A DNA stretch of 64,000 bases from a virus (IMGVR_UViG_3300036770_003758:38211-102210), one strand, 5' to 3'. Shown: positions 16,047-64,000, numbered from the stretch's first letter. The notes: generated by a model from the letters alone, not told the origin. Numbers and translations: made by a program.

Positions 16047-16088
16047 AAAAAAACTGTTTGAGTTAGGTGTTACCCTAACCCAAACAGT
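16047..16088 (-). terminator. Rho-independent terminator after the AAA ATPase
   Basis: ACTGTTTGAGTTAGG/CCTAACCCAAACAGT stem with a T-run on the minus strand. Confidence 0.7.
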
Positions 16089-16160: not shown

Positions 16161-17594
16161 TCAACCCTTGTAATCCTCAGATGAATACTCAGCAATGATA
16201 CCAGGCGCAGCCTTCTGAAGAACAGTGTGCATAACCTTACCTGCGTAGTACTCAAGGCCAGCAGGTTTCTCCTGATCTTTGTGAATAAACGCATTGTGCT
16301 GCGTGATCTGAGAAATGTTTGCTTCGATGAAATCTTCGGTAAGTTCAATGTTGAGTTCTTCAGCAGCCAAGATCAGACGCTTGCACAACTGAGTAACTTC
16401 TGAGCCAGCGATGTTTTCTGGCAAACGATTTGCAAGCTTCTCGGTGTCGATGTTCTCAAAGCCAGCGATGTGATCCAAGTTGAGGTCCATGATGGTTTTA
16501 GACATCTCTTTGGTGCAATACGGAAACTCCACGATGAAGTCAATCCTGCCACTGCGACGGAAGCTCTGATGAATACGATCGATGTTGTTTGTAGTAAACA
16601 CAAAGATAACATCGGTATTCTTCAAGCTTTGGCCATCGATAGTATTAAGGATATCGTTCATATCCGAGTTACGCTCGCCACCGAGAACATCGTCAATGTC
16701 TTCTGCAAACACTGTAGAGTAACCATAGTTCTCCAAGTATGGAAGAAGAGTTTCGAGTTGGTTAGAGTTGTGCAGATAAAAGAATGTTCTACCAGCATCA
16801 ATAGATTCTTTACCAAGACGAATGGCAGTTTCTGTTTTACCCGTACCGTAAGGGCCATAGAACAACATCTTCTGAGACTTCTTGTTGTGAAGTTTCACAT
16901 ACGGAAGAATCAGGTTCGTAATCGTGACGTTGGTATCACGGCTAAGCACGATGTTCTTAGCTACCTTGAGGTTGATAGGGTGCATAAGCAAACCAGAACG
17001 CAATTGTTCAATAGTAACAGCTTTACCTTGCATCACCTTGTTGGTAGCAACTTCTTTGCCGATGTTGCTCAGGAATGCTTCTGCTGTTTTCTTGTACCTG
17101 TTCTTACACCGGATACCAATAGCACTTGGTGTCAACGTAAGGATAGCATCATCCCACACCTTGATAACCATAGAGCCGATGAACGCAGATTCTTCGATCT
17201 TGTTACCCTGGTCATCAAAACCAATAGGAATTTGCATGTACGTAGATTGCGTACGATCACCAGTGTAATCACGTGGCGATTCGATGAACTTACCAATAGT
17301 TTTGGTAAGCACGCGGTTTACGGTAAGCAAGAAATCGTTCAAGAAAAAGTTGGAGTAACTTTGTGCTACGGTAGTAATGCTTTCTTCGTGCTCATACTGC
17401 GCAATCAGTGTTTCTGATGCTTGTAAGTAGTCCATACCTCTTGGTAACAAGATGTGTGGATGGTCGTGATACAGAGGTTCTTTTGAGTTCTGATCAACTC
17501 TTGACTTGTAGCCGCTAGGCTTCACTGCGTTGAAGAGATCTTTGATAAACTCAAGACCTGCTGCAACTTGAACTTCTTTGACTTTTTTAGTCAT
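16161..17594 (-). CDS. Classical AAA ATPase (FtsH/CDC48/BCS1-like module) with an uncharacterised N-terminal region
   Basis: YGPYGTGKT, VFAEDID, FTTNNIDRI, RRSGRID second region of homology. Confidence 0.9.
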   Translation of the reverse strand: MTKKVKEVQVAAGLEFIKDLFNAVKPSGYKSRVDQNSKEPLYHDHPHILLPRGMDYLQASETLIAQYEHEESITTVAQSYSNFFLNDFLLTVNRVLTKTIGKFIESPRDYTGDRTQSTYMQIPIGFDDQGNKIEESAFIGSMVIKVWDDAILTLTPSAIGIRCKNRYKKTAEAFLSNIGKEVATNKVMQGKAVTIEQLRSGLLMHPINLKVAKNIVLSRDTNVTITNLILPYVKLHNKKSQKMLFYGPYGTGKTETAIRLGKESIDAGRTFFYLHNSNQLETLLPYLENYGYSTVFAEDIDDVLGGERNSDMNDILNTIDGQSLKNTDVIFVFTTNNIDRIHQSFRRSGRIDFIVEFPYCTKEMSKTIMDLNLDHIAGFENIDTEKLANRLPENIAGSEVTQLCKRLILAAEELNIELTEDFIEANISQITQHNAFIHKDQEKPAGLEYYAGKVMHTVLQKAAPGIIAEYSSEDYKG

Positions 17595-17628
17595 GATAAA
17601 GTGTTTATGAGTAAATAAATAAATAGCC

Positions 17629-17730
17629 TTATTTGCGTGCGATAAGTACCGTTAACCCACCGGGTTGTTCGTACAAATCGCAGTTTTCATCTTTAGGGGT
17701 AATTAGCCAATGTAAATAGTACACTTGCAT
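17629..17730 (-). CDS. Array micro-ORF, last unit (33 aa)
   Basis: MQVYYLHWLITPKDENCDLYEQPGGLTVLIARK; ends about 35 bp before the AAA ATPase start. Confidence 0.65.
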   Translation of the reverse strand: MQVYYLHWLITPKDENCDLYEQPGGLTVLIARK

Positions 17731-18814
17731 ATCTTAGTATTAAAAAGTAAGAACTGTTTGTTAAATTGTTTTCTATTCTAAGGTGCACGTGCATGTGGTA
17801 ATAAAACGTTATAAGTTTCATGTTTTAAACTTTAACGTTGCCGTCATAGCACTGTGGTCAGACTTAGCGTAATTAAAAGAATCTCTTATCACGTGGTTTA
17901 AATCTAAACCAAGTATAAACTTAAGTTTGTTTAATTCCATTGCTGTAGTTTTTGAATGTAGAAAATAGAAGTCTTTACCAGCAAGAATACAGTTCGTCGT
18001 TTCATAGACCACCAGTATTTCTTATTCATGTGAATGCTGTATATATTCATCTATTGTAATTTTTGAACTAAACCGCAATAGTTATATTCGTATACTAAAC
18101 TACAGTGAAAAGTAGGATGTACCCACTGCATACTTTTAAATATCAACATATTAACTTATTTATTAATATAAATATTTTTGAAGCAGCGTCTATTTTAACT
18201 GCACTAGTGTAATATTGATACGGAAACATTGTTGAAATTCCTCTTATCAGCATACCGTGTGCTTAAGTGTTAACAAATACTTAGTTCTAACAGTATTTAC
18301 TTTAGCGATATGAAAGTTAAAGTGAAAATTCTGGCATTTGACAACTATATTAATTACTTGCATACCATGTATTTCAACAAGGCTTTTACATCGACTCTAT
18401 TTTCATTAGCGTTTCTGAAGCAAAAGTCTTGTGCCCTTGTTAATCTTAAATCAGATAGCTCCATTACATGTATTTTAATAAAGTTATGTAATTCTTTCTT
18501 TTGTAATGTTCAGCATACGTGGTTATCATCTCGTAGCTGTTACCAATTGCGTAGTCTAATATAATGTCGTATAAACGATCGTTTATTTCCATAACATGTA
18601 TTTTGCGATTAACCTAATGTCAACGTCAAGTTTTTCTGCAGTATCTTCAAATCGTATAAGTTTCTTTGAACCAAAAAAACTTACATTATACAATGTAGTA
18701 CACCTCATACAATAAATTTTAGACAGCAATCGTGAAAAACAAATGGCCAAGTAGAAGCTTTGTATAGTTCTTTACAACCAGCAGAGTAGTTTGTGAACCT
18801 AAACATTAACGTGG

Positions 18815-18943
18815 TCATTTGTATTTGTTTTTAGACTTACGTTGATCTTTTTTGTATTCTACGTAGGCCATCGTGTAAGCAAACACTAGAATAAAGCTTA
18901 CGATAAACAAAAACCCTAAAATTATTTTTGCGAAATTATCCAT
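18815..18943 (-). CDS. Array micro-ORF, single-TM peptide (42 aa)
   Basis: MDNFAKIILGFLFIVSFILVFAYTMAYVEYKKDQRKSKNKYK. Confidence 0.75.
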   Translation of the reverse strand: MDNFAKIILGFLFIVSFILVFAYTMAYVEYKKDQRKSKNKYK

Positions 18944-19031
18944 GGTTATATGTATTTAATTGTTAACAAATATTTAGTATTAAACATTTCTCCTGATATA
19001 AAAGTGTGTACAGGTTGTATGTGGTATCTGT

Positions 19032-19145
19032 TTAATCTTTCTGTTGGCATTGGTGAAATTTTACAATTAGTTGATAAGTATTTCTAACAGTAGGTGTGTA
19101 AAACATCATGGTGTATACGTGATATTTTATCTTTACTACAGGCAT
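19032..19145 (-). CDS. Array micro-ORF (37 aa)
   Basis: MPVVKIKYHVYTMMFYTPTVRNTYQLIVKFHQCQQKD; paralog of the adjacent unit. Confidence 0.75.
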   Translation of the reverse strand: MPVVKIKYHVYTMMFYTPTVRNTYQLIVKFHQCQQKD

Positions 19146-19234
19146 TTTACAATTAGTTGTTGATAAGCATTTATAATAGTAGGTACATGATAGGGCATGT
19201 TGTGCGCATGATACCATATTTTTATCACATGCAT
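19136..19234 (-). CDS. Array micro-ORF (32 aa)
   Basis: MHVIKIWYHAHNMPYHVPTIINAYQQLIVKCL. Confidence 0.75.
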   Translation of the reverse strand: MHVIKIWYHAHNMPYHVPTIINAYQQLIVKCL

Positions 19235-19859
19235 TTTACAATTATTTTTAAGTAGTGATCATAATAAGGTTTCCACATAAGCTTTCTACTTATACGAGCA
19301 CGTGTGTAATCTATTTCTTCACTCCACATATTTTGTAGTTATTAAAGTGTACGCGGCTGTATACGTAAATGTTCTATACAGTATATAAACATTATTCTTG
19401 TCAAATAAATAAAAAGATTTAGCTATATTCATTTTTGTTTAAATACGATTAAATAAATAGTATTTACATTGTCAAAATCTGCATCACAGTACTTTTCTTT
19501 TTTAGAGCAGTAGTAATACTGATAATAAAAATCGTCAACTTCAAATTCCATAGTTTACAGTTTATACGTTTGTGATACAATAAAGTGCAACTTAGTTCCA
19601 CCAAACTTGATTTTGTGAACAAAAACTTCTTGCATAATAAAGAATATGTTCATAGCTGTTTAATTAGCACAAGATTTGAACCTAAATTGTAGTTAAATGG
19701 TACAAAAAGTTGACCAGGTACGTGAAATTTAAACTCCATTATCATGTCAGTAGTATTTAAGCATTGTGATAAACGCGTGTAGATGATACTCTATCGTTAT
19801 AGCTGGATAGCATTTAGGCACGTAGAACGTATAGCTTTGTTCCATAGTAGATATTTTAC

Positions 19860-19982
19860 TTATCTGCATCGTATATGTTTTACTACAATTCTAAATCCAA
19901 TGTCTAGTGTAAGGTCTAATATATTTCTATTAGGAAACCTGAGTTCGTAATTAGCTTGTACAAGCGTGTTATAATACATCAT
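19860..19982 (-). CDS. Array micro-ORF (40 aa) ending in an FGE-like GFR strand
   Basis: MMYYNTLVQANYELRFPNRNILDLTLDIGFRIVVKHIRCR. Confidence 0.8.
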   Translation of the reverse strand: MMYYNTLVQANYELRFPNRNILDLTLDIGFRIVVKHIRCR

Positions 19983-20104
19983 TGCCGTAGAAATTTTAAC
20001 ATTAAAATAAACCTATCTCTTTCTGTCATATTGTTGTGTATGTATTGAATAACACTTTTACCCATACCTCTAAAATCTGGATATATAGCTGTTAAATACA
20101 TCAT
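19979..20104 (-). CDS. Array micro-ORF (41 aa)
   Basis: MMYLTAIYPDFRGMGKSVIQYIHNNMTERDRFILMLKFLRQ. Confidence 0.85.
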   Translation of the reverse strand: MMYLTAIYPDFRGMGKSVIQYIHNNMTERDRFILMLKFLRQ

Positions 20105-20223
20105 GGTATAAACTTTAGTGTAAAAATAAATCTGTCTATTTCAGATATATTCTCAGGTAAATATTGAATAATGTTCTTACCCATGTTTCTAAACTCTGGG
20201 TACATAGCAAGTAAAGACATCAT
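20101..20223 (-). CDS. Array micro-ORF (40 aa)
   Basis: MMSLLAMYPEFRNMGKNIIQYLPENISEIDRFIFTLKFIP; paralog of 19979-20104. Confidence 0.85.
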   Translation of the reverse strand: MMSLLAMYPEFRNMGKNIIQYLPENISEIDRFIFTLKFIP

Positions 20224-20338
20224 AGTATTTGTTTTAATGTTATACTAAACCCATGACATACTGGTTCACGTAAACCATGTAGATAAGTGTATTTTATTTT
20301 TGTGCGACTGTGATTAAATAAAATCGCAATTAAATTTC

Positions 20339-20470
20339 TCATGGTACGTGTTTTAAGATAAGTTGAAATCTATCATAAGATGTGATTCTTTCTTGTGTTT
20401 TAAGCGTTTTTTTCAAAGGTGTAAATTTTCTGCGATAAGTTTTAAGAAGCCAGAAGTGTATTGATTTCAT
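20339..20470 (-). CDS. Array micro-ORF (43 aa)
   Basis: MKSIHFWLLKTYRRKFTPLKKTLKTQERITSYDRFQLILKHVP. Confidence 0.8.
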   Translation of the reverse strand: MKSIHFWLLKTYRRKFTPLKKTLKTQERITSYDRFQLILKHVP

Positions 20471-20586
20471 TACATATGTTTTAAAATAAGTTGAAACCTA
20501 TCCTCGTACACAATATCAGCTACAAGATTTGCTTCTACCCTACTCTTGTAAGCTGCAGGATTGCGTACAAATATTACTGCTAACAT
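20470..20586 (-). CDS. Array micro-ORF (38 aa)
   Basis: MLAVIFVRNPAAYKSRVEANLVADIVYEDRFQLILKHM. Confidence 0.8.
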   Translation of the reverse strand: MLAVIFVRNPAAYKSRVEANLVADIVYEDRFQLILKHM

Positions 20587-20799
20587 GGTATTTGTTTTAA
20601 TGTAGCATACAATCTGCGTACAGTATTTCCTGGGTTACATAAGTTTATGCGCAAGTATCTGTAAAAATCAATTTGTATTTCAATATTCTTCATGATGTTT
20701 GTTTTAATATTACAGTAATTTTTATACGTTTTATATCTATCTCAATATTTCTTACAAAATCATCACAACGTGTACTTGAACAATCGATAATTACAACTG

Positions 20800-20904
20800 T
20801 CATTGTATATGTTTTAAAATAATAGAAAAGCCCTCGCGACCGCTGTATCCTAGTATCATTACAGTCAAATAAGCGGCTGTATATCCATATGAGTAAGTTT
20901 TCAT
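20800..20904 (-). CDS. Array micro-ORF (34 aa)
   Basis: MKTYSYGYTAAYLTVMILGYSGREGFSIILKHIQ. Confidence 0.8.
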   Translation of the reverse strand: MKTYSYGYTAAYLTVMILGYSGREGFSIILKHIQ

Positions 20905-21005
20905 GGTATCAACTTTAAAGTAATCGAAAAGGATTCATCTCCACTATGTCCTAGTTCGTGCACAGAAATACAACTGTATGTGTGTTCATATGCCCATGTG
21001 TTCAT
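20901..21005 (-). CDS. Array micro-ORF (34 aa)
   Basis: MNTWAYEHTYSCISVHELGHSGDESFSITLKLIP; paralog of 20800-20904. Confidence 0.8.
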   Translation of the reverse strand: MNTWAYEHTYSCISVHELGHSGDESFSITLKLIP

Positions 21006-21988
21006 AACATTAGTTTTAATATTATTGATAAATCATCTTGAATAAAATCGTACACTTCAGGTGCATTTATAATATGTGTTCCAAGAACTAAGTGTATCGT
21101 GTTCATAGTATAAACTTTATCATAACTAGAAAATCATCGTCAAAAAATGGTATTAAACCACGATCTTTGTCTACTAGTTTGCAAGAATATATTACGTATG
21201 TTGTTACGTCCATAATATTTTCATTGTAATTAAAATACTATCTTCTCCATAGAATATGTGATCTACAAGTGTTATGTATTTTGTGTCCACAATATTAGTT
21301 TTAACGTGATTATAAAATCATCGTTTAGGTTAGTAGAATATTTTAACACGCTCAATAAACACGAGTGCGCAGTAACTAATGTTTTTGTACATTCCATCTC
21401 AATACAATTAAGAAATCTTTATCTTCAAGTTTTGTTTTTTCTAGTCTATCCAGTAAATGCTTGTTATCGTGTGTACCAATAGGCATACATAGATCTAACA
21501 TTGTAAAATGTGCTATTTCCATCACATGTATTTAACCATAAAAATAAAATCATTCTTGACGTAGCTACAATTACTAAATGCTAAGTAATCTAAATACAGT
21601 TTACAATCTATACTGTGTACCCACATTGTTAAGTCTGTAAATTTCATAACATGTACTTATTTGCTAACTGTAAAATAACCTTAAGATGTGCACAGTTGAT
21701 ATAAGATGGAGTAAACACATCATTATCTAGTAAGATGTATTCCCAATCCCTATGTTCTACTTGCATAACATATACTTTTTTATAAGCCTAAAGTTAGGTT
21801 TAAAGAAAGCGTATTTAATAATATAAGGTTCAAGAAATGCATCTGTAATATAATTCCAACCAGTTTCTACTTTCACGATATCTGTTTTACAATAATTAAA
21901 GGTAATACAGTAGGCTTACTTATTTTGCGATCAGCATCATACATTGGATTTGATATAGGGAGGTTTACGTAAAACGTCATAAATGCTA

Positions 21989-22114
21989 TCATGGTACATA
22001 TTTTAATACGAATACAGTAATATCTATGTTAGGTGCATGTTTTGATTCAGTGTGAAATCTATAGATATCGTGAAGTCTATAACTATCAAAAGTGTAATCT
22101 AATGAAGCTTTCAT
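21989..22114 (-). CDS. Array micro-ORF (41 aa)
   Basis: MKASLDYTFDSYRLHDIYRFHTESKHAPNIDITVFVLKYVP. Confidence 0.8.
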   Translation of the reverse strand: MKASLDYTFDSYRLHDIYRFHTESKHAPNIDITVFVLKYVP

Positions 22115-22202
22115 ACAAGCGTTTTAAGAGTTACAATAAACTGTTGTGTCAAATACGAGTGTGAATAAAATCTCCAGTCTAGTTCGTATACTTTCTTTAC
22201 GC

Positions 22203-22310
22203 TCATTGTACGTATTTTATTACAAGTACAGCAATATCCCTATTGTGCGGATGTTTTAATTCAGGATGGATTTTATGACCACCTCTAGTGTAGTTTAATA
22301 AAGCTCTCAT
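22203..22310 (-). CDS. Array micro-ORF (35 aa)
   Basis: MRALLNYTRGGHKIHPELKHPHNRDIAVLVIKYVQ; paralog of 21989-22114. Confidence 0.8.
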   Translation of the reverse strand: MRALLNYTRGGHKIHPELKHPHNRDIAVLVIKYVQ

Positions 22311-22404
22311 ACAGATATTTTATTGATGGTTAAAAAAGATGTACCTGCGTAAGTTATTTTTAATTTTACTCTAGGGCTGTCGACCCATAAAATGTATAAC
22401 AACT

Positions 22405-22506
22405 TCATTCTGCATTTTTTATGATAGCAAATAAACATAATCCAGCTTTACCAGATCTTCTGTCATTTTTAAGGTTAGTGCCTACGACACTGTGTGTTAT
22501 AATCAT
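22405..22506 (-). CDS. Array micro-ORF (33 aa)
   Basis: MIITHSVVGTNLKNDRRSGKAGLCLFAIIKNAE. Confidence 0.8.
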   Translation of the reverse strand: MIITHSVVGTNLKNDRRSGKAGLCLFAIIKNAE

Positions 22507-22615
22507 TGTATGTGTTTTAAGTTAATTCTAAATCTAAGTACAGTAATGACATAGGTTTTAAGATCTATTTTAAGTACTATGTCAGGTTGCATAGTTTGTA
22601 CAAATCCTACAAATT

Positions 22616-22717
22616 TCATGGTTTGTATTTTAAAATAAAAAATAAAGAAAATCCTGCTTCACCAGATTTGTAATTGTGTTTAAAATTAGATTCTCCAATA
22701 CTTAAAATCGCTGTCAT
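22616..22717 (-). CDS. Array micro-ORF (33 aa)
   Basis: MTAILSIGESNFKHNYKSGEAGFSLFFILKYKP; paralog of 22405-22506. Confidence 0.8.
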   Translation of the reverse strand: MTAILSIGESNFKHNYKSGEAGFSLFFILKYKP

Positions 22718-22863
22718 GGTATGTGTTTTACAATAGCTCCAAAATTACTTGCGTTGTGATTCAAGTTTAAATAATCTACAGCTTCGTGTAAACGTATAGT
22801 CATGTAGTTATTTATGTACGGTGTAGTAACTGCTCTGTACATCATTAAGTCTATAAACTTCAT
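22714..22863 (-). CDS. Array micro-ORF (49 aa)
   Basis: MKFIDLMMYRAVTTPYINNYMTIRLHEAVDYLNLNHNASNFGAIVKHIP (3' part of track ORF 22714..22941). Confidence 0.75.
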   Translation of the reverse strand: MKFIDLMMYRAVTTPYINNYMTIRLHEAVDYLNLNHNASNFGAIVKHIP

Positions 22864-23213
22864 GATATAAGTTTTAATATAAACAAATGTCCACGACTTT
22901 GGTGAGATGCGTTCATTACGTAGTTTTTTGGAAGTGTCCAATCATTTACAGGTGGTACGTATGCAATTATGTGTTTTGTTTCCACGGTATTACTTTTAAT
23001 ATGATTAATGTTTTTATTGATATCATACTTGTTAGCAATCGTACGTTGTGAGAATATTTATCGTTTTTAAAAAGCGGTACTGTTCTCATAAAACTAGTTT
23101 TAACGTAAAATAAGCAGAATAAGGTGGTACATTATCTAGCTGTAATATCTCAAGTGCGTGGTCTGTTAAAGTACATACAAACTCGTCTTTAACAAGTGTC
23201 ATTTCAATAAACC

Positions 23214-23336
23214 TCATAGCTTATACTTTTGTACAATTATTACTTTCTTCTTAGTAGTTGTGTAGTTTAACGGCCCTTTCCATGTAGTAAAGTGCGTACG
23301 TACAGTATCTATAAATATTAAATCGACATTGTTCAC
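23214..23336 (-). CDS. Array micro-ORF (40 aa, GTG start)
   Basis: MNNVDLIFIDTVRTHFTTWKGPLNYTTTKKKVIIVQKYKL. Confidence 0.7.
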   Translation of the reverse strand: MNNVDLIFIDTVRTHFTTWKGPLNYTTTKKKVIIVQKYKL

Positions 23337-23472
23337 AGCTTATGTTTTTGCACAAAAAAAAGTAATTACGATCTTTAAAAGTGTGATCTACCACTATAGG
23401 TATTTCCGCAAAGTTGATTGTCAAAAGTGTAAAGCTGTTTTTGAATATTAATACTATATAAACATTGCTCAT
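23251..23472 (-). CDS. Array unit apparently frameshifted at a T8 run (73 aa as read)
   Basis: One extra T at 23354-23361 would give ...RNYFFFVQKHKL* ending at the usual junction. Confidence 0.6.
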   Translation of the reverse strand: MSNVYIVLIFKNSFTLLTINFAEIPIVVDHTFKDRNYFFLCKNISCEQCRFNIYRYCTYALYYMERAVKLHNY

Positions 23473-24027
23473 AGCTTATATTTTAATAAGATATTGTAAT
23501 GAAGCATGTAATTACCTCTACCTGTGAGATATACATCTATACCATTGTCACGTATATCTAACAATAATCTGAGTGTGTTCATTTTCTGTATTTTATTACA
23601 GCCCAGAAATGCATCAATAAACCTGTACCTATATGTCGATGTAATATTATATTACCATCTGTAGATTTAAAGTTTGATATCTCAAGTACTCCTAAGTAGT
23701 TCATGGCACCAGTTTTAATATCGATAAATAACAAAAATCAATTTTTAAAAATCTCTTTGATTTAGGGCACTCATCATGCAGTGAGTACATTATAAATAAG
23801 TACATAGATAGGTATGTGTTTTAATATTGCAAAAGCAGTTAGCTTAGATATAGATAATAATCTACTGTACACTTTAATATCAGCAAACAAAATTGTAGTT
23901 TTCATAACATGGTTTTAACTGTTACAGGTATGCTAATTTCATCAGGTAGTAATATATATGAATAAAGTTTATTTTGCTGCGTTATGTACAAAACTTCCAT
24001 TTTCATAGGTAGGTATATTAAACACAA

Positions 24028-24050
24028 ATGCCCTTGGTTTACAAGGGCAT
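24028..24050 (-). terminator. Hairpin directly upstream of the micro-ORF array
   Basis: ATGCCCTTG/CAAGGGCAT 9-bp stem followed by an imperfect T-tail (TTGTGTTT) on the minus strand. Confidence 0.55.
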
Positions 24051-24056
24051 CGTGGA

Positions 24057-24197
24057 TTATGCAATTTCTGCAAGTTCTGGTTCTAAACCTGGGTAGATTT
24101 CTCGTATCTTAATCTCAGCTTCATCTTTACTAGAAGCTTCAATATGTACGACACCAGCACCAATAAAAAAAGTAAAAATTTGCTTTTCTTCTTCCAT
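24057..24197 (-). CDS. Small acidic hypothetical protein (46 aa)
   Basis: MEEEKQIFTFFIGAGVVHIEASSKDEAEIKIREIYPGLEPELAEIA; below the ORF-track cutoff. Confidence 0.65.
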   Translation of the reverse strand: MEEEKQIFTFFIGAGVVHIEASSKDEAEIKIREIYPGLEPELAEIA

Positions 24198-24221
24198 AAT
24201 GTTTTGTTTATTAAATTAGAC

Positions 24222-24251
24222 AAAAAACCAGGGCTATATTTCAAGCCCTGG
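24222..24251 (-). terminator. Rho-independent terminator
   Basis: CCAGGGCT-TGAAATAT-AGCCCTGG-TTTTTT on the minus strand. Confidence 0.75.
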
Positions 24252-24277
24252 TACATAGTGAATCAAAGTATAAGGAG

Positions 24278-24442
24278 TCACTTGTTTTTCCAGATACGTT
24301 CTTTAGTCTTTTTTCCAGTAACAGTACACACTGTTTCTAAGTAAAACGCGCCGTGATTAGGTAAGCTTTCTTTAATAGCTTCGATGCTATCAGCTTCTAA
24401 GATGCGTTTACCTTTTTCGGTCACAATGTAATACTTTTTCAT
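24278..24442 (-). CDS. Small hypothetical protein (54 aa)
   Basis: MKKYYIVTEKGKRILEADSIEAIKESL...RIWKNK (3' part of the track ORF). Confidence 0.6.
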   Translation of the reverse strand: MKKYYIVTEKGKRILEADSIEAIKESLPNHGAFYLETVCTVTGKKTKERIWKNK

Positions 24443-24449
24443 GTTTGTG

Positions 24450-25280
24450 TCAATAGAAAAAGACATTAGACATGTACTCTTCTTTTGGAAACTTATCCTT
24501 CCAGATATCCTCGTCCATATAGGGCAAGTTATCTGGAACAGCCATTTTCCACACATTGCCTACAGTATCGTAAATACCGTACTTGTTTGGTTTTTTCTTC
24601 TTTACAGGTTGTGTTTTTCCGCCCATTTCTGCAGTAGTCCATGCAATCTCTTGAATATCTGTTCGAGTGTCCAAGTTCTCAGCATGATCTGCAGCAATGA
24701 TAGTCCATTCGGCTTTTGTAGGAAACAAGAATACAGCGTGACCTTTGATAGCTGGATTATACCAGAACCACCACTGACCATTGTATTCTTTCATGATATA
24801 CGGCATTGGTTTACCGTGCATATCGTTGAGCCAGTTGATGTATGCGATTGCGTTCAAGATCTCAAGATTAATCGCTGGGCGATCATCTCGACCATAGTTT
24901 TGATCATTAGCGAGATCTCGTCCTGTCATGTAACAGAACGCGTCAAACTGGTTGAACGTAACTACGGTATCTGCTGATGCTACAAGTGGAAAACATTCTG
25001 CTGGTAGTGGTACAAAAGTACCTAAGTCGATGTCCTTGTCGCTGATAGTCTTTTGCTCAAATGCACGTTGTGATGTAGCTACAGCAACTACAAACGGTTC
25101 TACAGGTTTTCTGTTGACCACATTGATAGTTGCAATAGCATTGCGGTGTACTTCTTCAAGCTCTGGTGTATTGAAATGTGCACGCATTTTAGGTAATGCT
25201 TGTGCATACCATTTACCAAAGTCTTTAGGTGAAAAAGAAGATTTCTGTTGAACTTGCTTCTTAAACTCTTCTACAGTCAT
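24450..25280 (-). CDS. FGE-sulfatase (C-type lectin fold) domain protein lacking the terminal RGG...GFR segment
   Basis: VVTFNQF, PAIN..NAIAYINWLN, FPTKAEW, IAW, TQPVKKKKPNKYGIYDTVGNVW; no RGG or GFR follows. Confidence 0.8.
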   Translation of the reverse strand: MTVEEFKKQVQQKSSFSPKDFGKWYAQALPKMRAHFNTPELEEVHRNAIATINVVNRKPVEPFVVAVATSQRAFEQKTISDKDIDLGTFVPLPAECFPLVASADTVVTFNQFDAFCYMTGRDLANDQNYGRDDRPAINLEILNAIAYINWLNDMHGKPMPYIMKEYNGQWWFWYNPAIKGHAVFLFPTKAEWTIIAADHAENLDTRTDIQEIAWTTAEMGGKTQPVKKKKPNKYGIYDTVGNVWKMAVPDNLPYMDEDIWKDKFPKEEYMSNVFFY

Positions 25281-25351
25281 GATTGTGATTTTAGTTAAAA
25301 AGAGAAGGGAGTATTAACTCCCCTCTCCAAAGACGTAATGAAATAAGACTC

Positions 25352-25687
25352 TTAGTCCCAGGCATCGCTGATCGAATCCTCTCCTTCGCCAAGTGGGTTG
25401 TACTCAATCTGGATAGAAGAAATGTGAAGATCCGGCTCCAGTTCTACAGTTGGATGCACTGGATGCTTGAGAAAAGCTTTTTTACCTTCTGGTACCACAA
25501 AGGCAACAATGTTACCCCTATCCGAAGGAATAGGAGTAGGCATTGTAAACCCTACAGGTGCCTTGAAATTTGGTTTGAAATCATCGCGTACTACAATGTA
25601 GTCGCCTTCAAGGACGTGCTTTTCAGCACTCCCTGGCGTAACGGTTACGATCTCGTTCATGATAACGAATTTAAGATTGTTCAACAA
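25352..25687 (-). CDS. Small His-motif protein (partner of the DUF6745-like protein)
   Basis: EKHVLEG...LKHPVHPTVELEP...QIEYNP pattern; start probably MNEIVT. Confidence 0.5.
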   Translation of the reverse strand: MLNNLKFVIMNEIVTVTPGSAEKHVLEGDYIVVRDDFKPNFKAPVGFTMPTPIPSDRGNIVAFVVPEGKKAFLKHPVHPTVELEPDLHISSIQIEYNPLGEGEDSISDAWD

Positions 25688-26378
25688 TAAGTTTAAAGAA
25701 ATCCTCTTTGTTCATGTGGTACGGTGAATCTAACCACGGTTTACCTACATATTCTGGTTTAATCGTAGTGATAATAACTTCACCTTGACGGCGTATACAC
25801 TTAATGTGCTCAAGTGGTATCCTAGTTCTAAAAGCCCATGCTACTGCTGCTGCAGCATCATAGCTGCCTTTTTTGCAGAATTTTTCAGTGTGCGGCACCA
25901 TCAAGAAATACGGTGTACCAAAGTGTACGTCGAATACTTGTACAGCATACACGTGTGTTACCTTTTTACCGTTGATTGCAGGTTCACGCATCTCAGGGAA
26001 TACCTCTTTAATAGGCCTCCTTCTGAGAATGTAGTGGTTCGTAATCGTAGAGTCTTTCTGCTTAGTTTCTACAGTACGCTCATCTACAATTTCTGCATCA
26101 GCAAAGATAGTAGAAAACGGTAAAAACCTGAACAGTGCTTGGCGTTTAGCAGAAGCTTGTTCTGCCCGTAAATTAGGGAACAGTGACTTAAAATCAGAGA
26201 GTTCAGAAAACGTAATTGGTGTTACATCTTTCCAGATTTCTCTGATAAAATCATTGTTAAGTACAGGAAGATCTATGAACATGTCATCAAGATCTTCCTT
26301 GTACTTAGCCTTTAGTACCCTCAGTGCAAAGTCGAAAGGGAACAAAAAGTTCCCAATCTGAAGTACTTTCATCTTCAT
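25671..26378 (-). CDS. DUF6745-like protein
   Basis: AVQVFD...YFLMVP...AAAAVAWAF...IRRQGEV motifs. Confidence 0.5.
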   Translation of the reverse strand: MKMKVLQIGNFLFPFDFALRVLKAKYKEDLDDMFIDLPVLNNDFIREIWKDVTPITFSELSDFKSLFPNLRAEQASAKRQALFRFLPFSTIFADAEIVDERTVETKQKDSTITNHYILRRRPIKEVFPEMREPAINGKKVTHVYAVQVFDVHFGTPYFLMVPHTEKFCKKGSYDAAAAVAWAFRTRIPLEHIKCIRRQGEVIITTIKPEYVGKPWLDSPYHMNKEDFFKLIVEQS

Positions 26379-33825: not shown

Positions 33826-34527
33826 TTACTTTGTAAGTGCTAAACGAAATCCACTGCCACCTGAAGAAAGAACAACAAGGCGAGACGCAATGCGGCAGTT
33901 TATGATATTGGCACTATAAGCACCACCACGTTCTGCCCGAAGAGGAGTTCCATCATATTCGTAATAACCTACTATGTCTTCGCACCATTCCCTTACATTA
34001 CCAGTCATATCGTAAAGCCCCAACTCATTGGGCTTCTTCTGCCCCACTGGATGCACTGTATTTCCAGAATTACCTTTATACCACGCAACTTCATGCAAGT
34101 TATTACTGCCTGCGTACCTGTATCCTTTGGTTTTTAAACCGCCACGGGCTGCAAACTCCCACTCTGCTTCCGTTGGCAAGCGATATTTCAGACCTGTTTT
34201 TTTGTTTATCTTAGCCAGAAACTTTTCAATCTTATAACAGTCTGCATATTGTACTGGACAATTGTCGCAGGTTCTCAAATACTTTGCTTTGTTTTTTATA
34301 ACTTCCCGCCACTGTTTCTGCGTAACCGGATACTTGCTAATATAGAAATCCGATACCGTTACTTGGTGTACAGGCTTTGTGTCCCTATCCCAATACACAA
34401 AACTTCTGTAATTACGTTCTCCTGGGAAAACGTTGATTCCCTGTTCTGAAGTGCGGCCCATCATTAATGTACCGCCTTTGACAAGAACCATGTTATTAAA
34501 AATTTCTTCTAAGATTTCTTCTAGCAT
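33826..34527 (-). CDS. Full-length FGE-sulfatase (SUMF1/C-type lectin fold) domain protein
   Basis: MVLVKGGTLMMG, YPVTQKQW, YRLPTEAEWEFAARGG, PNELGLYDMTGNVREW, RGG, GFRLA. Confidence 0.92.
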   Translation of the reverse strand: MLEEILEEIFNNMVLVKGGTLMMGRTSEQGINVFPGERNYRSFVYWDRDTKPVHQVTVSDFYISKYPVTQKQWREVIKNKAKYLRTCDNCPVQYADCYKIEKFLAKINKKTGLKYRLPTEAEWEFAARGGLKTKGYRYAGSNNLHEVAWYKGNSGNTVHPVGQKKPNELGLYDMTGNVREWCEDIVGYYEYDGTPLRAERGGAYSANIINCRIASRLVVLSSGGSGFRLALTK

Positions 34528-58498: not shown

Positions 58499-61400
58499 AT
58501 GAAATTCATACATATATTGTTTTTATTAATTCCAGTTTCTGTTTTTGCACAGTGGGGGACACCTAATCCTAGAAATATCGTATTAGGTTCTCAGACAACT
58601 GGAGATGGTCTTGTGTATAGAGGTGGTGCAATAGGTAGTGTAAATTATGTACCTAGTTCAAAAGGGTATGCTTGGATGCATCTAGATACTGTAAATAACA
58701 GGTTGTATTCTTATATTAATAGTCAGTGGCAAGAAATGAGCGCTGCGTCTATATTAGGGTTTTACAGATCTAATGATACTTTGTACTTGCAGACTACAGA
58801 TTCGTTATTTTACGCAATGACTACATCTTCTGTAATTAGTAATTCTACATATTTTAATAGCAATGGTAATGATCTATCTGGTTCGCAGGTAGATTCTATT
58901 GTAGATATTGCAGATTTACATACCTTTTATGTAAGACTTCAAAGCACAGCAAGTTCAGACGCAGAAATAACATTTAACACACCAGGGTCTGATGATGTTA
59001 GTAAAACAATCACGTTTGTAGCAAAGAATGAAAGTTCTACATATAGTATTTCTTTAGCTAATTTATATTTTCAAGGTTCGTTACTCTCCCCTTATATTGT
59101 AAATACAGGGGAAACTATAATCATATCGGCTCAAAAAACACAAAGTGGTAACCAGTGGCACGCTGCTACAATTAGTCCTGGAACTAATTTAAGCTTTTCT
59201 GGTGTATCATCTCCTGTAACATTACAGAGCAATACTGGTACAGATGTAACACTTACTGCAGGATCTGGTATAAGTTTAAGTGCAAATAGTACAAACATTA
59301 CAATTACAAACACAGGTACTTTAAATTTAGATGGAGATAAAGGAGACGTTGTGATATCTTCTTCTGGTACTGTTTACACAATAGATACTTTTGCTGTAAC
59401 TACTATTAAAATTGCAGATTCTTCAGTAACAAGCGCAAAAATGGCTGCATCATCCGTTGACCTAAGCTCAAGCGTTGTTACAAATACGCTTCCCGTATCG
59501 AAAGGCGGCACCGGATCTACCCAATTTCCAAGAGGCAGGCTACTTGTCGGGGATAGCAATTCTACTTTTATAACCAACAACAATTTGTATTGGGACACCT
59601 TAAACAAACGATTGTTTGTTGGCACGGGCTGGAGTAAAGCAGGTAATACGGTCGGCTCTCGCATCACATCGTTTGCCGCAGATAGTTCTGAGCTGGACGG
59701 AGTTGGGCACTTGCTTGTTTATCCCAATATGAATACGGCTTTTTATGGTAATGCGGCAGGCTTTTTCGTATCTAAGAACTTAAATGTAACGGATATCCTT
59801 ACAAGAAATCCATCAGAAACAGCTTTAATATTAGGAAGGCCGGGACTTCAAAATGCCTCATGGGGCAACCTTGCAAGATTTGACTTATCTAAATACACGA
59901 CCGGACAGGAGCCAAAAACGCAGTTAGACATACGCCTATCTAACGATTACAACGAAGGCGATAGCACGCCCAAGATAATGACCCTTCGCGCTGATGCAAA
60001 GGTCGGCATAAACGATACAGTGCCTACCAATACGCTTACCGTAAATGGAGATGTCCGTATAAAAAATTTGAACACAAGCGGAGACCCTACTTATTTGATC
60101 GGTGCACAAAGCGACGGCGACTTGGATAGCGTAAAACTTGGTGGCGCAATTAGCTTTGTAAACGACACGCTTACCGTAAAAGCAAGCGGCATAGATTCAA
60201 ATATGCTGACATCGTCCTCCGTTACTTGGGTTAAATTAGCGCAAGCGGTAAAGGATAGCATCGGCGCGGGCGGCGGTGGCGGCGTTACAAGCATAACTGC
60301 CGGAACCGGGTTAACAGGCGGAACTATTACAACGAGCGGAACCATTGCGGCAGATACCGACTTCCTTGTTACCGTCAACGATACGGCCTCTATGCTGTCG
60401 CCTTATCTAAGGGACGCTGACACGACAGCCATGCTCGCACCATATCTACGGGAGGCTGATACCCTTACTTTATCCAATAGGATCAATCTAAAGGTCAATA
60501 TATCTGACACAACTGCTATGCTGTTGCCTTACCTAAGAAAAGTAGTTGACAGCTTGTCTTTTGTTACAACGTATGAAGGCGTTGCAGTGTCCGGCGAAAT
60601 GATTTGGAACAATCAATCTGGGACCGTACATCTTGGAATGACGGGCGACATTGAAATGCCTATTGGACAAGCAGAGGCGCACATGGTTAGAAATACGACC
60701 GGAAGTCAGATTGCAAAAGGCAAGGTTGTGTATATCTCTGGAGCATCAGGACAAAGGCCGCTAATTTCACTTGCCGATGCAGATAGCGAAAGCACAAGCT
60801 CAGGTACATTTGGAATTACCGCAGAGGCGATAGACAACAACGATACAGGCTTTGTTTTTGTGAGCGGATATATTCACGGAATTAATACCAGTGCAATATC
60901 CCCTGGAAGCGCACTTTGGCTCGATACTATTGCAGGAGGGTTTACTACTTCTAAGCCTGTTGCCCCAATACACGCCGTCCTTGTCGGGTATTCAATTACA
61001 CAAGCCAACAACGGCACCATTTTTGTCAAAGTACAAAATGGGTACGAACTCGGAGAGCTTCACGATGTAAATGTAAGCGGGGCTGTAAACGGAAATCTTC
61101 TACGGTACAATTCATCGTTAAGCATTTGGGAGGATGCACAAGCGGATAGCGCCTCTATTGCTACAAGCGCAATAAAAACGGTACACATTGCAGATTCAGC
61201 GGTAACTTCTGTTAAACTTGCAAGTGCAAGCGTTGGGCTTAACACTGCGACTACAAGCGGAACGTTGCCTGTATCAAAGGGCGGAACGGGGCTAACGACA
61301 TTTGGAGGCGCTGGAAGGGTGCCGTACAGTACGGGCACGACAGGGACGGGGTTGCAGTTTGACACGCTTTTTAGGGTTTTCCCGGCAAATAGCAATTTTT

Positions 61401-62995: not shown

Positions 62996-63020
62996 TTCAT
63001 TAACGAAAAGCAACAGTATC

Positions 63021-63851
63021 ATGTATAGCGAAGAAAAAATCTACGATGTGTTAGGCACTATCCACAATCAATCCAAACCTAAGCCGTATTTCGCAATCTG
63101 CCAACCCCGGCGCGATGCAAGCGAAACCCCGGCGCAGGACTTTGCAGCGCAGTACGGCGGGGCTTTCCCGCTGGCACTTGAAAACTACTCGCATACGTTT
63201 CTTCAGGTAAGCGGGCAACCCGTGGACGTGGCACGAAATATGCTGCTTGAGGCGGCGGTGGAACGCGGGGCGAAGTACGCCTTTTTCATTGGCGAAGATA
63301 CGGTACTGCCTTTTTACGCGTTTCAGGAGTTGCACCGACTCGCAGAAGCCAACCCGGACGCGGTGATTAGCGGGGTGTATTACTTTAAGTGCGGAGGGCC
63401 TATGATAATGATACGCGATGAGGAAAACCGCCAATGCCTTGCGGATGCAACGCCGGGAAAGATGATTGAAAACCCACTGCTTTGCGGGCTGGATGTGATG
63501 CTCATACCAACGGCGATCCTGAAAAAGATGCAAGAAAATGAACCGGATACGCCATTTACCTGCGTTTTTCCGGGGAATGAAGAAATACGATTTGTGGGCG
63601 AAGATGACTTTTTCTTGACACGCCTATACCGCAATGGTTTTCGCGTGTTAATTACCACCGACGTGCAATGCCTGCACATGGACTTAGCTACGGGCAATTA
63701 CACGGCGCACCCGGACGTTGTGCTGGAGGACTACAACACCTGCATTCCTATCGGCAGGCCACTTACCTACCGCGATAAGCACTACATTGATAAGCGCTGG
63801 AATGATCGAATGCCGAAGCCGGAATATCTAATTGAAAATATTGAAGCATGA
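63021..63851 (+). CDS. Glycosyltransferase family 2-like protein
   Basis: VDVARNML...FFIGED...ISGVY...GEDDFF...CLH. Confidence 0.75.
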   Translation: MYSEEKIYDVLGTIHNQSKPKPYFAICQPRRDASETPAQDFAAQYGGAFPLALENYSHTFLQVSGQPVDVARNMLLEAAVERGAKYAFFIGEDTVLPFYAFQELHRLAEANPDAVISGVYYFKCGGPMIMIRDEENRQCLADATPGKMIENPLLCGLDVMLIPTAILKKMQENEPDTPFTCVFPGNEEIRFVGEDDFFLTRLYRNGFRVLITTDVQCLHMDLATGNYTAHPDVVLEDYNTCIPIGRPLTYRDKHYIDKRWNDRMPKPEYLIENIEA

Positions 63852-64000
63852 AATATTATAGCGTGTTTTTCGCTCTCCCCCTGCTGCTGCTCACCGATGC
63901 CCCGGCGCTCTCCTCCGTGGGCTGGCCGGGCGCGGTGATGCTGGCATTGGCCTTGCTTTTTGGCGGGGCGCGCAGGGGGCTTTCTCAGATATATATTAAC
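63848..64000 (+). CDS. Membrane protein, truncated at window end
   Basis: MKYYSVFFALPLLLL...GAVMLALALLFGG, open to the edge. Confidence 0.55.
   Translation, partial: MKYYSVFFALPLLLLTDAPALSSVGWPGAVMLALALLFGGARRGLSQIYIN

What the first reader, a model, noticed from the sequence alone, without database searches (positions are those of the whole stretch)
17629..24006. Hidden 6.4-kb array of 58 coupled, hypervariable micro-ORFs
Seen: the ORF track shows a near gene desert. Hand translation of the minus strand gives 58 consecutive ORFs, 28-49 aa apart from one frameshifted unit, at about 110 bp period with essentially no intergenic DNA. Each stop overlaps or abuts the next start, commonly via ATGA in a junction like TTAAAACATATACCATGA. 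Most peptides have a hydrophobic N-terminal strand, an unrelated middle and a C-terminal hydrophobic strand + (L/V/I)K(H/Y/Q/L)xx, e.g. DRFQLILKHVP, GFSIILKHIQ, DDFIITLKLIL. This many consecutive open frames of matched length is very unlikely by chance in AT-rich DNA. Inference: a phage-encoded, diversified peptide library expressed as one polycistron. I do not recognise it as a described system.
Basis: partly seen in the sequence, partly recalled or inferred. Interest (0 to 1): 0.97.

Follow-up and report, generated by a model that had tools for sequence, protein, structure and literature searches.

The report
Split phage lectin with 58 tip micro-genes
An environmental crAss-like phage carries 58 real, back-to-back genes of about 38 codons beside a lectin-fold protein that lacks its last, ligand-facing piece; each tiny gene probably supplies a different version of that piece, giving a hard-wired library of binders with no published precedent that I could find.

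Summary
58 short ORFs tile the minus strand from 24006 to 17629, 52 of them in one unbroken chain. Dinucleotide shuffles never chain more than 4.

They are genes. A relative at about 80-88% DNA identity keeps every frame open. Across 41 orthologous units dN/dS is 0.31, against 0.71 and 0.94 in the shifted frames.

Three phage lineages carry such an array, always directly downstream of the same unusual gene (window 24450-25280). Its model (pLDDT 94) is an FGE-type C-type-lectin fold. Its best solved match is TvpA, a DGR variable protein. The match to human FGE stops at residue 325, before the last ~45 residues, the stretch that forms the variable region in DGR proteins. The micro-proteins have that size. 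In the third lineage they start with a GGSY-type motif and end in a hydrophobic strand.

Best reading (about 0.5): one constant scaffold plus about 58 interchangeable tips that complete it in trans. A complex prediction gave only weak support. Sequence homology of the tips to the missing segment is not significant. Binding and expression are untested.

This scan has noted the same idea on other phage genomes. I found no paper describing it.

The parts
17629..24006 (-). Array of 58 translationally coupled micro-genes (28-49 aa, one of 73 aa), proposed tips for the scaffold
   Evidence: tiling. (shuffles). (orthologues in L001, dN/dS 0.31).
17629..23336 (-). Unbroken chain of 52 units (48 ATG, 4 GTG starts)
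23251..24006 (-). First six units, including the 73-aa irregular unit at 23472-23251
   Evidence: In L001 the irregular unit is 46 aa.
24450..25280 (-). Scaffold gene (P0038, 276 aa): N-terminal helical part plus an FGE-type C-type-lectin domain that ends about 30 aa after GNVWKM and lacks the RGGSW...GFR end segment
   Evidence: Pfam PF03781 at 41 bits, profile positions 83-188 of 255. AF2 model pLDDT 94.4. TvpA 2y3c Z 13.6; human FGE aligned only to residue 325. Subfamily profile against PDB: TvpA E 2.4e-20, ending at residue 238 of 294. Subfamily alignments.
20792..20829 (-). Reference copy of the ~38-nt junction element (end of one unit, start signal and ATG of the next)
   Evidence: family D1 (9 copies at 67-76% identity). 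Position matrix.
19979..20223 (-). Recent tandem duplicate pair of units (59% aa, 72% nt identity)
   Evidence: D2. One of the pair is missing in contigs of runs X5 and X6.
19860..19982 (-). Unit ending ...IGFRIVVKH..., the closest match to the canonical FGE-fold end motif (iGFRvv)
   Evidence: 6.7 bits against a model of 190 canonical end segments, the only unit at or above 5 bits.
24278..24442 (-). 54-aa small protein between scaffold and array
   Evidence: conserved in L001. No family.
24057..24197 (-). 46-aa small protein just upstream of the array
   Evidence: 96% identical in L001. No family.
24027..24051 (-). Hairpin just before the first unit
   Evidence: The T tail is weak.
25352..25687 (-). 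111-aa gene upstream of the scaffold, conserved in all three array-bearing lineages
   Evidence: 56% and 32% identity. No family.
25671..26378 (-). 235-aa gene, conserved in all three lineages upstream of the scaffold
   Evidence: 53% and 36% identity. No family.
16161..17594 (-). Classical AAA ATPase, 35 bp downstream of the last unit and probably on the same transcript. Conserved beside the array in lineages 1 and 2 only.
   Evidence: Absent after the L127 array.
16053..16088 (-). Strong terminator-like hairpin after the ATPase

Best explanation
The array is a hard-wired library of end-pieces for a split binding protein.

Gene 24450-25280 makes the constant body of an FGE-type C-type-lectin fold. 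It keeps the N-terminal strand (FVPLPAECFPL, the counterpart of MVPIPAGVFTM in human FGE) and the GNVW core. It lacks the last ~45 residues, the RGGSW strand, the loops and the GFR strand. In DGR variable proteins that stretch forms the ligand-binding variable region.

Each micro-gene encodes one such piece: an N-terminal strand, a variable middle and a C-terminal hydrophobic strand. The 58 units would be transcribed together and translated by stop-start coupling. Each also has its own A-rich start signal.

Each product would dock non-covalently onto a scaffold molecule and complete the fold. One infection would then produce about 58 different binders. New tips arise by tandem duplication, divergence and whole-unit gain and loss.

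Shown here: the genes are real and under selection; the array is linked to the scaffold gene in three lineages; the scaffold's fold and its missing end.

Inferred: docking in trans, co-transcription, and the ligand. The module sits among replication genes, so an intracellular target such as host defence or takeover proteins is my guess.
For: 1. Coding. Frames stay open in relative L001. Over 1490 codons dN/dS is 0.31, against 0.71 and 0.94 in the shifted frames, which carry 206 and 169 stops against 0. The neighbouring ATPase has dN/dS 0.09 at similar synonymous divergence (pS 0.31 v 0.33). Indels between orthologues come in whole codons. The variable interior alone gives 0.36, with a bootstrap range of 0.35-0.50 on pN/pS.

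2. Linkage. Every lineage in IMG/VR that has this scaffold subfamily has an array directly downstream on the same strand. These are the window with L001, L013/L126 (scaffold 59% identical) and L127 (28% identical; about 57 units over 7.5 kb). Units of different lineages are unalignable, while flanking genes are 52-72% identical.

3. Scaffold. The AF2 model has pLDDT 94.4. The best solved match is the DGR variable protein TvpA (2y3c: Z 13.6, rmsd 3.4, 166 residues aligned). Human FGE aligns over residues 87-325 only, before Cys336 and Cys341 and the end strands. The subfamily profile hits TvpA at E 2.4e-20, and the match ends at residue 238 of 294. All subfamily members end with PxMxxExWxxxFPxxxYL..WF and have no RGGSW...GFR.

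4. Size and shape. 190 canonical end segments have a median length of 41 aa. Units have medians of 38, 47 and 47 aa in the three lineages. Published DGR variable regions are 40-45 aa at the very C-terminus, and the first and last strands of the fold pair with each other (PMC6328139). L127 units begin M-x-L-x-x-x-x-x-G-G/A-S-Y/F and end S-T-x-L-x-L. hhalign's only alignment puts that GGsY onto the canonical RGGsw.

5. Complex prediction, L127 scaffold residues 85-318 plus the unit at L127:14835-14969: weak support. Score 0.54, best of 3 controls 0.19. The mark was reached by 58 of 80 solved complexes and 2 of 110 mismatched pairs. At 0.60 or under it was reached by only 7 of those 80 and by both mismatches that passed. 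The runs agree in at least 23% of contacts, and the partner's pLDDT is at least 34.
Against: Sequence homology of the units to the missing segment is not significant. hhalign gives E 0.32. Against a model of canonical end segments the units score only marginally above shuffles and no better than their own reversed sequences; lineage 2 shows nothing. Pfam and PDB searches with the units find nothing.

The GGSY motif is clear only in lineage 3. The window's own units mostly lack it.

The complex pass is of the weak kind. One of three runs scored 0.02. It was run on lineage 3, not on the window's proteins.

The scaffold folds with high confidence on its own, and its 30-residue tail might fill the gap. 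I could not inspect coordinates.

Interior composition is close to that of random AT-rich translation.

Part of the shared C-terminal motif is a start signal for the next gene.

There are no expression data.
Confidence: 0.5

Rival explanations
1. The units are real but independent small proteins, for example fast-evolving inhibitors or decoys against host defences. They have no physical link to the lectin-fold gene. The shared C-terminus would be a legacy of tandem duplication plus the start signal of the next gene.
For: Coding and fast turnover are shown. The AAAA and purine(-3) part of the junction resembles the phage's general start context. Homology of the units to the lectin end segment is not significant. 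Yutin et al. 2021 note blocks of short, orphan genes in crAss-like phages and suspect counter-defence roles (PMC7886860).
Against: This does not explain why the array follows the same rare truncated scaffold gene in three lineages whose units share no sequence. It does not explain why unit size matches the missing segment. It does not explain why a hydrophobic C-terminal strand is kept in lineage 3 under a different nucleotide junction.
Confidence: 0.25
2. The units are silent cassettes that are recombined (gene conversion or a shufflon-like site-specific system) onto the 3' end of the scaffold gene. Only one tip would be expressed at a time.
For: The units are bounded by a ~38-nt direct repeat. 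Whole units are lost or replaced between strains. Pilin and shufflon systems are precedents (my own knowledge).
Against: Each of the 58 units has its own ATG or GTG, a start context like the phage's real genes, and a stop. The scaffold's 3' end has no junction motif; it is followed after 9 nt by an ordinary 54-aa gene. No recombinase was seen among the neighbours scanned. The scaffold ends the same way in all members.
Confidence: 0.05
3. The units are substrates or adaptors of the downstream AAA ATPase, docking by their conserved C-terminal strand.
For: The ATPase starts 35 bp after the last unit with no terminator between them. It is syntenic in lineages 1 and 2. C-terminal docking peptides for AAA+ enzymes are known (my own knowledge).
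Against: Lineage 3 has about 57 units and no ATPase after them. ATPase relatives at 37-39% identity sit in phages without arrays.
Confidence: 0.05
4. The units are precursors of modified peptides (RiPP-like), with a conserved C-terminal recognition sequence acted on by the FGE-like protein.
For: Many hypervariable short precursors sharing one recognition end lie beside an FGE-family gene.
Against: The FGE-like protein lacks the segment that carries the catalytic cysteines 336 and 341. No known RiPP enzyme family was found among the neighbours. There is no conserved Cys/Ser-x-Pro-x-Arg target motif in the units.
Confidence: 0.04
5. The array is read as one long repeat protein by serial -1 frameshifting at each junction, or it is not coding at all and is a repeated regulatory or RNA element.
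For: The next unit is nearly always in the -1 frame, and some junctions contain U UUA AAA.
Against: In-frame slippery heptamers occur in only 6 of 51, 3 of 25 and 5 of 51 units. A start codon is kept at every unit. Fifty-eight successive shifts would yield almost no full-length product. Non-coding is excluded by the frame-specific selection. There is no Rfam match, no tandem DNA repeat and no tRNA. Other stop-codon readings do not open long frames.
Confidence: 0.03

Closest known systems
DGR variable proteins of the FGE-type C-type-lectin fold (Treponema denticola TvpA, PDB 2Y3C; Bordetella phage Mtd; Thermus TaqVP)
   Same: The scaffold's best solved relative by fold (Z 13.6) and by sequence profile (E 2.4e-20) is TvpA. 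In those proteins the last 40-45 residues are the diversified ligand-binding region (PMC6328139). That is the size and position of what the scaffold lacks and of the units.
   Different: There is no reverse transcriptase in the 102-kb genome and no template/variable repeat pair. Diversity is stored as about 58 separate germline genes rather than made by mutagenesis. The variable piece would be a separate polypeptide.
Formylglycine-generating enzyme family (Pfam PF03781)
   Same: The scaffold passes the Pfam cut-off (41 against 23.3 bits) and superposes on human and bacterial FGE (Z 9.4-9.6).
   Different: Only profile positions 83-188 of 255 match. The region with the catalytic cysteines is absent, so it is not an FGE enzyme. 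The phage has a second, complete family member at 33826-34527.
Translationally coupled operons with overlapping stop and start (ATGA)
   Same: 26 of 51 junctions have the 4-nt overlap, and the others keep the same frame relation.
   Different: 58 cistrons of about 38 codons in a row. I know of no operon of this kind, and the searches found none.
Blocks of short orphan genes in crAss-like phages (Yutin et al. 2021, PMC7886860)
   Same: Short genes without homologues outside the group, in crAss-like genomes.
   Different: Those are described as ordinary short genes or as short ORFs of mixed polarity. They are not a one-strand chain of coupled units with a shared end motif linked to a lectin-fold gene.
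Cassette systems for variable protein ends (R64 shufflon PilV, pilin silent cassettes; my own knowledge)
   Same: Many alternative C-terminal segments for one protein, stored side by side.
   Different: Those segments are joined at the DNA level by a recombinase, and one is expressed at a time. Here every unit has its own start and stop, and no recombinase or expression site was seen.

Membership tests
Diversity-generating retroelement (DGR) | DGR-type reverse transcriptase | tested here: not met
   PF00078 search of the whole 102-kb record (92% complete): no match; the controls responded.
Diversity-generating retroelement (DGR) | Template repeat nearly identical to a variable repeat, differing at adenines | tested here: not met
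   Within 17600-25300 the only repeats are ~38-nt junction elements and two diverged tandem duplicates at 72-73%. The rest of the genome and host genomes were not searched.
Diversity-generating retroelement (DGR) | Target protein with a C-type-lectin fold | tested here: met
   Scaffold model against TvpA: Z 13.6, rmsd 3.4, 166 residues.
Diversity-generating retroelement (DGR) | Variable region at the C-terminus of the target protein itself | tested here: not met
   The scaffold ends about 30 aa after GNVWKM. The match to TvpA ends at residue 238 of 294, and to FGE at residue 325.
FGE-sulfatase domain family (PF03781) | Significant match to the family profile | tested here: met
   41 bits against a cut-off of 23.3, but only profile positions 83-188 of 255.
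FGE-sulfatase domain family (PF03781) | Catalytic cysteine pair (human Cys336 and Cys341) for enzyme activity | tested here: not met
   The structural alignment to human FGE ends at residue 325. The tail has no Cys pair.
Split FGE-type lectin with separate tip micro-genes (proposed here and in this scan's unpublished notes) | Scaffold gene lacking the end segment, with an array of segment-sized genes beside it | tested here: met
   Three lineages out of three. Size match.
Split FGE-type lectin with separate tip micro-genes (proposed here and in this scan's unpublished notes) | Units homologous to the missing segment | tested here: inconclusive
   hhalign aligns GGsY to RGGsw at E 0.32. Scores against a model of canonical end segments are only marginally above shuffles.
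Split FGE-type lectin with separate tip micro-genes (proposed here and in this scan's unpublished notes) | Units bind and complete the scaffold | tested here: inconclusive
   Complex prediction gave weak support: score 0.54 against best control 0.19; one run scored 0.02; partner pLDDT 34-58; lineage 3 proteins only. Needs experiment.
Translationally coupled polycistron | Overlapping or abutting stop and start, with no internal terminators | tested here: met
   (sequence features only).
Translationally coupled polycistron | Single transcript and ribosome occupancy | not testable with these tools
   No RNA run holds the stretch.
RiPP precursor array | Neighbouring peptide-modifying enzyme of a known class | tested here: not met
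   Pfam and PHROG scans of the neighbours found none.
Shufflon or silent-cassette system | Recombinase and a recombination site at the expressed gene's 3' end | tested here: not met
   No junction motif at the scaffold's 3' end. No recombinase among the scanned neighbours. Not every gene of the genome was scanned.

The most novel reading that the evidence does not exclude
A virus keeps a germline repertoire of about 58 interchangeable binding tips for one lectin-fold scaffold and assembles the binders after translation by fragment complementation. This would be a third way to diversify a binding protein, beside DGR mutagenesis and DNA cassette switching. It would also be a natural split-protein display system that produces a polyclonal set of binders in every infected cell.
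Probability: 0.45. Interest if true: 0.93.

Novelty: categorically new. Interest (0 to 1): 0.88.

Why it matters
If the reading holds, phages have a previously unrecognised way to make many binding specificities from one protein body. There is no mutagenesis and no DNA rearrangement. The tips are separately encoded and plug into a truncated C-type-lectin fold.

This would change how 'gene deserts' in phage genomes are annotated, because standard gene callers skip 30-45 codon genes.

It would enlarge the known uses of the fold that DGRs diversify. It would also offer a compact natural scaffold-plus-peptide system for binder engineering.

Even without the scaffold link, 58 coupled micro-genes under purifying selection form the longest such chain that I know of. 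They are a direct test bed for translation coupling in Bacteroidota-type systems, which lack Shine-Dalgarno sites.

Tried and rejected
- DNA search of the array against GenBank phages: no match.
- Tandem Repeats Finder: no array-scale repeat.
- Rfam at E up to 1: nothing.
- tRNAs: none.
- Pfam on all window units and on 37 L127 units at E up to 10: only scattered chance hits.
- PDB sequence search with unit profiles: nothing meaningful.
- ESM Atlas with one unit: the sequence is held, but there were no usable neighbours and no model.
- Word-indexed search of 5.8 billion proteins with a 54-unit alignment: 27 candidates, none significant. A first try failed because the query was too short.
- First AF2 model of the scaffold with 7 sequences: pLDDT 41, unusable. 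It was redone with 38 sequences.
- BFVD fold search: only one weak FGE-domain phage protein.
- Motif-pair scans: the viral-contig scan with longer spacing and the genome-contig scan with the first pattern's spacing both gave hits without arrays.
- ATPase relatives at 37-39% identity: no arrays upstream.
- Metagenome scan with the ATPase alignment: 4 loci, no new array.
- Sigma-70 promoter scan: no more sites than in shuffles. Bacteroidota-type TAnnTTTG: no convincing site before the array.
- Alternative stop-codon readings: no long frames.
- Serial frameshifting: slippery sites are rare.
- No RNA holder was listed among the public runs, so expression could not be examined.
The genomic contexts of ATPase homologues P0004-P0008 and of scaffold-subfamily members P0064, P0086, P0099, P0104, P0058, P0063 and P0090 could therefore not be read.
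- Amino-acid composition of unit interiors: close to random AT-rich translation, with no clear tyrosine or serine enrichment of the paratope kind.

Full report
**Where the window lies.** It is bases 38211-102210 of a 102-kb virus record, estimated 92% complete. Terminase and portal match PHROG families of crAss-like phages. TerL is 29% identical to that of Cellulophaga phage phi14:2 and about 26% identical to Bacteroides crAss isolates. The array sits on the minus strand inside the replication block, which holds the polymerase, helicases, primase-like genes and an exonuclease. G+C drops from about 0.36-0.42 in the flanks to 0.29-0.31 across the array.

Listing ORFs of 20 aa or more shows a chain of short minus-strand ORFs. 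With ATG or GTG starts, a tiling gives 52 units without a break from 23336 to 17629. Six more run from 24006 to 23251, making 58 at a mean period of 110 bp. ATG-ORFs of 25-80 aa cover 95% of this strand and 15% of the other strand. In 300 dinucleotide shuffles the longest chain was 4 and mean coverage was 22%.

In 40 of 47 junctions the next ORF is in the -1 frame. In 26 of 51 the overlap is ATGA. The junction consensus is tTAAAAcAtAtaccATGa. The C-terminal consensus is acidic-x-F/Y-hydrophobic-hydrophobic-I/T-L-K-Y/H/Q-I/V-P/L.

**They are genes.** A relative was found (L001, IMG/VR 3300037502_002220; ATPase 93% identical) whose array aligns at 78-88% DNA identity with unit-sized gaps. It has the same chain of open frames. 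I paired 41 units with orthologues.

| Measure | Result |
|---|---|
| dN/dS in the reading frame (1490 codons) | 0.31 |
| dN/dS in the two shifted frames | 0.71 and 0.94 |
| Stops in the reading frame and in the shifted frames | 0, against 206 and 169 |
| dN/dS of the neighbouring ATPase, at similar synonymous divergence (pS 0.31 v 0.33) | 0.09 |
| dN/dS of the interior alone (without the first 3 and last 12 codons) | 0.36; bootstrap range 0.35-0.50 on pN/pS |

Gaps between orthologues are whole codons. One caveat: pairs were chosen at 45% amino-acid identity or more, which biases dN down somewhat. About a dozen units have no orthologue at all.

Contigs from other studies (lagoon, drinking water and freshwater metagenomes, plus soil from the source study) carry variants of the array. 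These include deletions of 128 nt and a net 119 nt, each of which removes exactly one unit and restores the junction. There is also a 9-nt deletion.

**Part of the shared motif is a start signal.** The phage's 55 long genes have no Shine-Dalgarno sequence. They are rich in A at -14 to -11 and have A at -3. The junction's AAAA (-12 to -9) and purine at -3 resemble this. Because the frame relation is fixed, TTA-AAA is read as Leu-Lys. The third position of the residue before Lys is A in about 80% of units, whichever amino acid it encodes. That is a nucleotide-level constraint.

The acidic and aromatic residues further upstream are not explained this way. Neither is the hydrophobic strand that lineage 3 keeps under a different junction sequence.

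**The array recurs in three lineages.**
- A motif-pair scan of IMG/VR found a second lineage (L008, L011, L013, L014). It has units of 36-61 aa, the same junction and the end motif x-T-L-K-H-I-P, but unrelated interiors.
- Its flanks are fully syntenic with the window. The FGE-like gene is 59% identical, the ATPase 52%, the polymerase 67% and the helicase 65%.
- A search with an alignment of the FGE-like subfamily found a third lineage (L127, a 103-kb contig). Its FGE-like gene is 28% identical and is directly followed by about 57 units over 7.5 kb.
- L127 shares with the window the 266-aa, 235-aa and 111-aa genes upstream of the scaffold. It has no AAA ATPase after its array.
- Phages whose ATPase is 37-39% identical have no array.
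- The constant neighbour of the array is therefore the FGE-like gene.
- Within the window only 7 unit pairs are detectably similar, mostly neighbours. Between lineages essentially none are.

**The scaffold.** Pfam places residues 126-246 on positions 83-188 of the 255-position FGE-sulfatase profile. The phage also has a complete family member at 33826-34527. An exhaustive HMMER search shows that most relatives match only up to GNVWKM (residues 241-246). A small subfamily (225-318 aa) shares the tail PxMxxExWxxxFPxxxYL..WF and ends there, without the canonical RGGSW...GFR.

With a 38-sequence alignment the AF2 model is confident (pLDDT 94.4, pTM 0.89). Its best solved match is Treponema denticola variable protein 1, TvpA (2y3c): Z 13.6, rmsd 3.4 A, 166 residues, model residues 83-256. 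Human FGE follows at Z 9.6, model residues 85-256 against FGE residues 87-325. That range begins at the FGE N-terminal strand; FVPLPAECFPL in the scaffold corresponds to MVPIPAGVFTM in FGE. It ends before Cys336 and Cys341. The subfamily profile hits TvpA at E 2.4e-20, ending at residue 238 of 294.

In TvpA, Mtd and TaqVP the DGR variable region is the last 40-45 residues. The first and last strands of the fold pair with each other (PMC6328139).

**Do the units supply the missing piece?**

For:
- 190 canonical end segments cut from the relatives have a median length of 41 aa. Units have medians of 38, 47 and 47 aa.
- L127 units align among themselves as M-x-L-x(5)-G-G/A-S-Y/F, a variable stretch, then S-T-x-L-x-L.
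- hhalign's only alignment to a canonical family alignment puts GGsY on RGGsw.
- Several window units end G-F-S/R-hydrophobic(3)-K, one of them as IGFRIVVKH.
- A complex prediction of the L127 scaffold (residues 85-318) with the unit at L127:14835-14969 gave weak support. Score 0.54, best of 3 controls 0.19. The mark was reached by 58 of 80 solved complexes and 2 of 110 mismatched pairs, but at 0.60 or under by only 7 of those 80 and by both mismatches that passed. The runs agree in at least 23% of contacts, and the partner's pLDDT is at least 34.

Against:
- The hhalign match has E 0.32.
- Against a model of the canonical segments, the units exceed shuffles only marginally and do not exceed their reversed selves.
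- Pfam and PDB searches are blank.
- The window's own units mostly lack the GG motif.
- I could not inspect the model's coordinates to see whether the scaffold's own tail fills the gap.

**What it is not.** It is not a DGR. There is no reverse transcriptase in the record and no template-like repeat. It is not an active FGE, because the cysteine region is absent. The evidence for and against the other rival readings is given under Rival explanations.

**Literature and earlier notes.** Five full-text searches and two papers read gave no description of such arrays or of a split lectin-fold binder. Yutin et al. 2021 mention only blocks of short orphan genes and regions of short ORFs of mixed polarity in crAss-like phages.

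This scan's own unpublished notes report the same reading for several other phage genomes (e1-5745239, e1-5745241, e1-6019293, e1-6019300, e1-5839013, e1-5652603). A note on this genome (e1-6060564) gave me the lead. These are not independent evidence. I tested the idea here as described above.

**Verdict.** The units are genes under moderate purifying selection with fast turnover. The best-supported mechanism, at about even odds, is a split FGE-type lectin with a germline library of interchangeable tips. Binding, expression and the ligand remain to be shown.

Noticed in passing
window 33826-34527 (-): A second, complete FGE-sulfatase-domain gene (233 aa, profile positions 4-254 of 255, ending ...RGGAY...GFRLALTK) in the same phage. 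Why the phage keeps a whole copy and a truncated one is unexplained.
   Followed up: partly
window 18815-18943 (-): One unit of the chain is a different kind of gene: a 42-aa peptide with a clear membrane helix and a Lys-rich tail, without the family end motif. It has no counterpart in relative L001.
   Followed up: no
L001:5015-5230 (+): Relative L001 has a 71-aa helical ORF inserted inside its array, where the window has the irregular 73-aa unit. It is an unrelated small gene that has landed in the array.
   Followed up: no
window, all long genes (start contexts): The phage's genes lack Shine-Dalgarno sequences. They have A-rich positions -14 to -11 and A at -3 in 71% of genes. This fits a Bacteroidota host (my own knowledge of Bacteroidota translation starts).
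   Followed up: partly
L101:5695-6169, L111:10609-11389, L113:191-665: The second motif scan hit several unrelated AT-rich viral contigs. In these the motif pair spans exactly 169 nt and recurs every 306 nt. There is no micro-ORF chain, so this is probably a different repeated element or an in-frame protein repeat.
   Followed up: no
window 58499-62995 (+) and 60000-64000: A 1498-aa ORF with no PHROG or Pfam match lies where G+C rises to 0.47-0.52, against about 0.36 elsewhere.
   Followed up: no
L013:4718-5664 (+): In lineage 2 the space between scaffold and array holds four conventional small genes (56-94 aa). One has CxxC...CPLC, a possible zinc ribbon. In lineage 1 the same space holds two genes of 54 and 46 aa.
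   Followed up: no
window 20084-20218 and 20347-20476: Contigs from a lagoon metagenome lack exactly one unit at each of these places (net 119 and 128 nt). A drinking-water contig shows the first one too. Unit number therefore varies between natural strains.
   Followed up: partly
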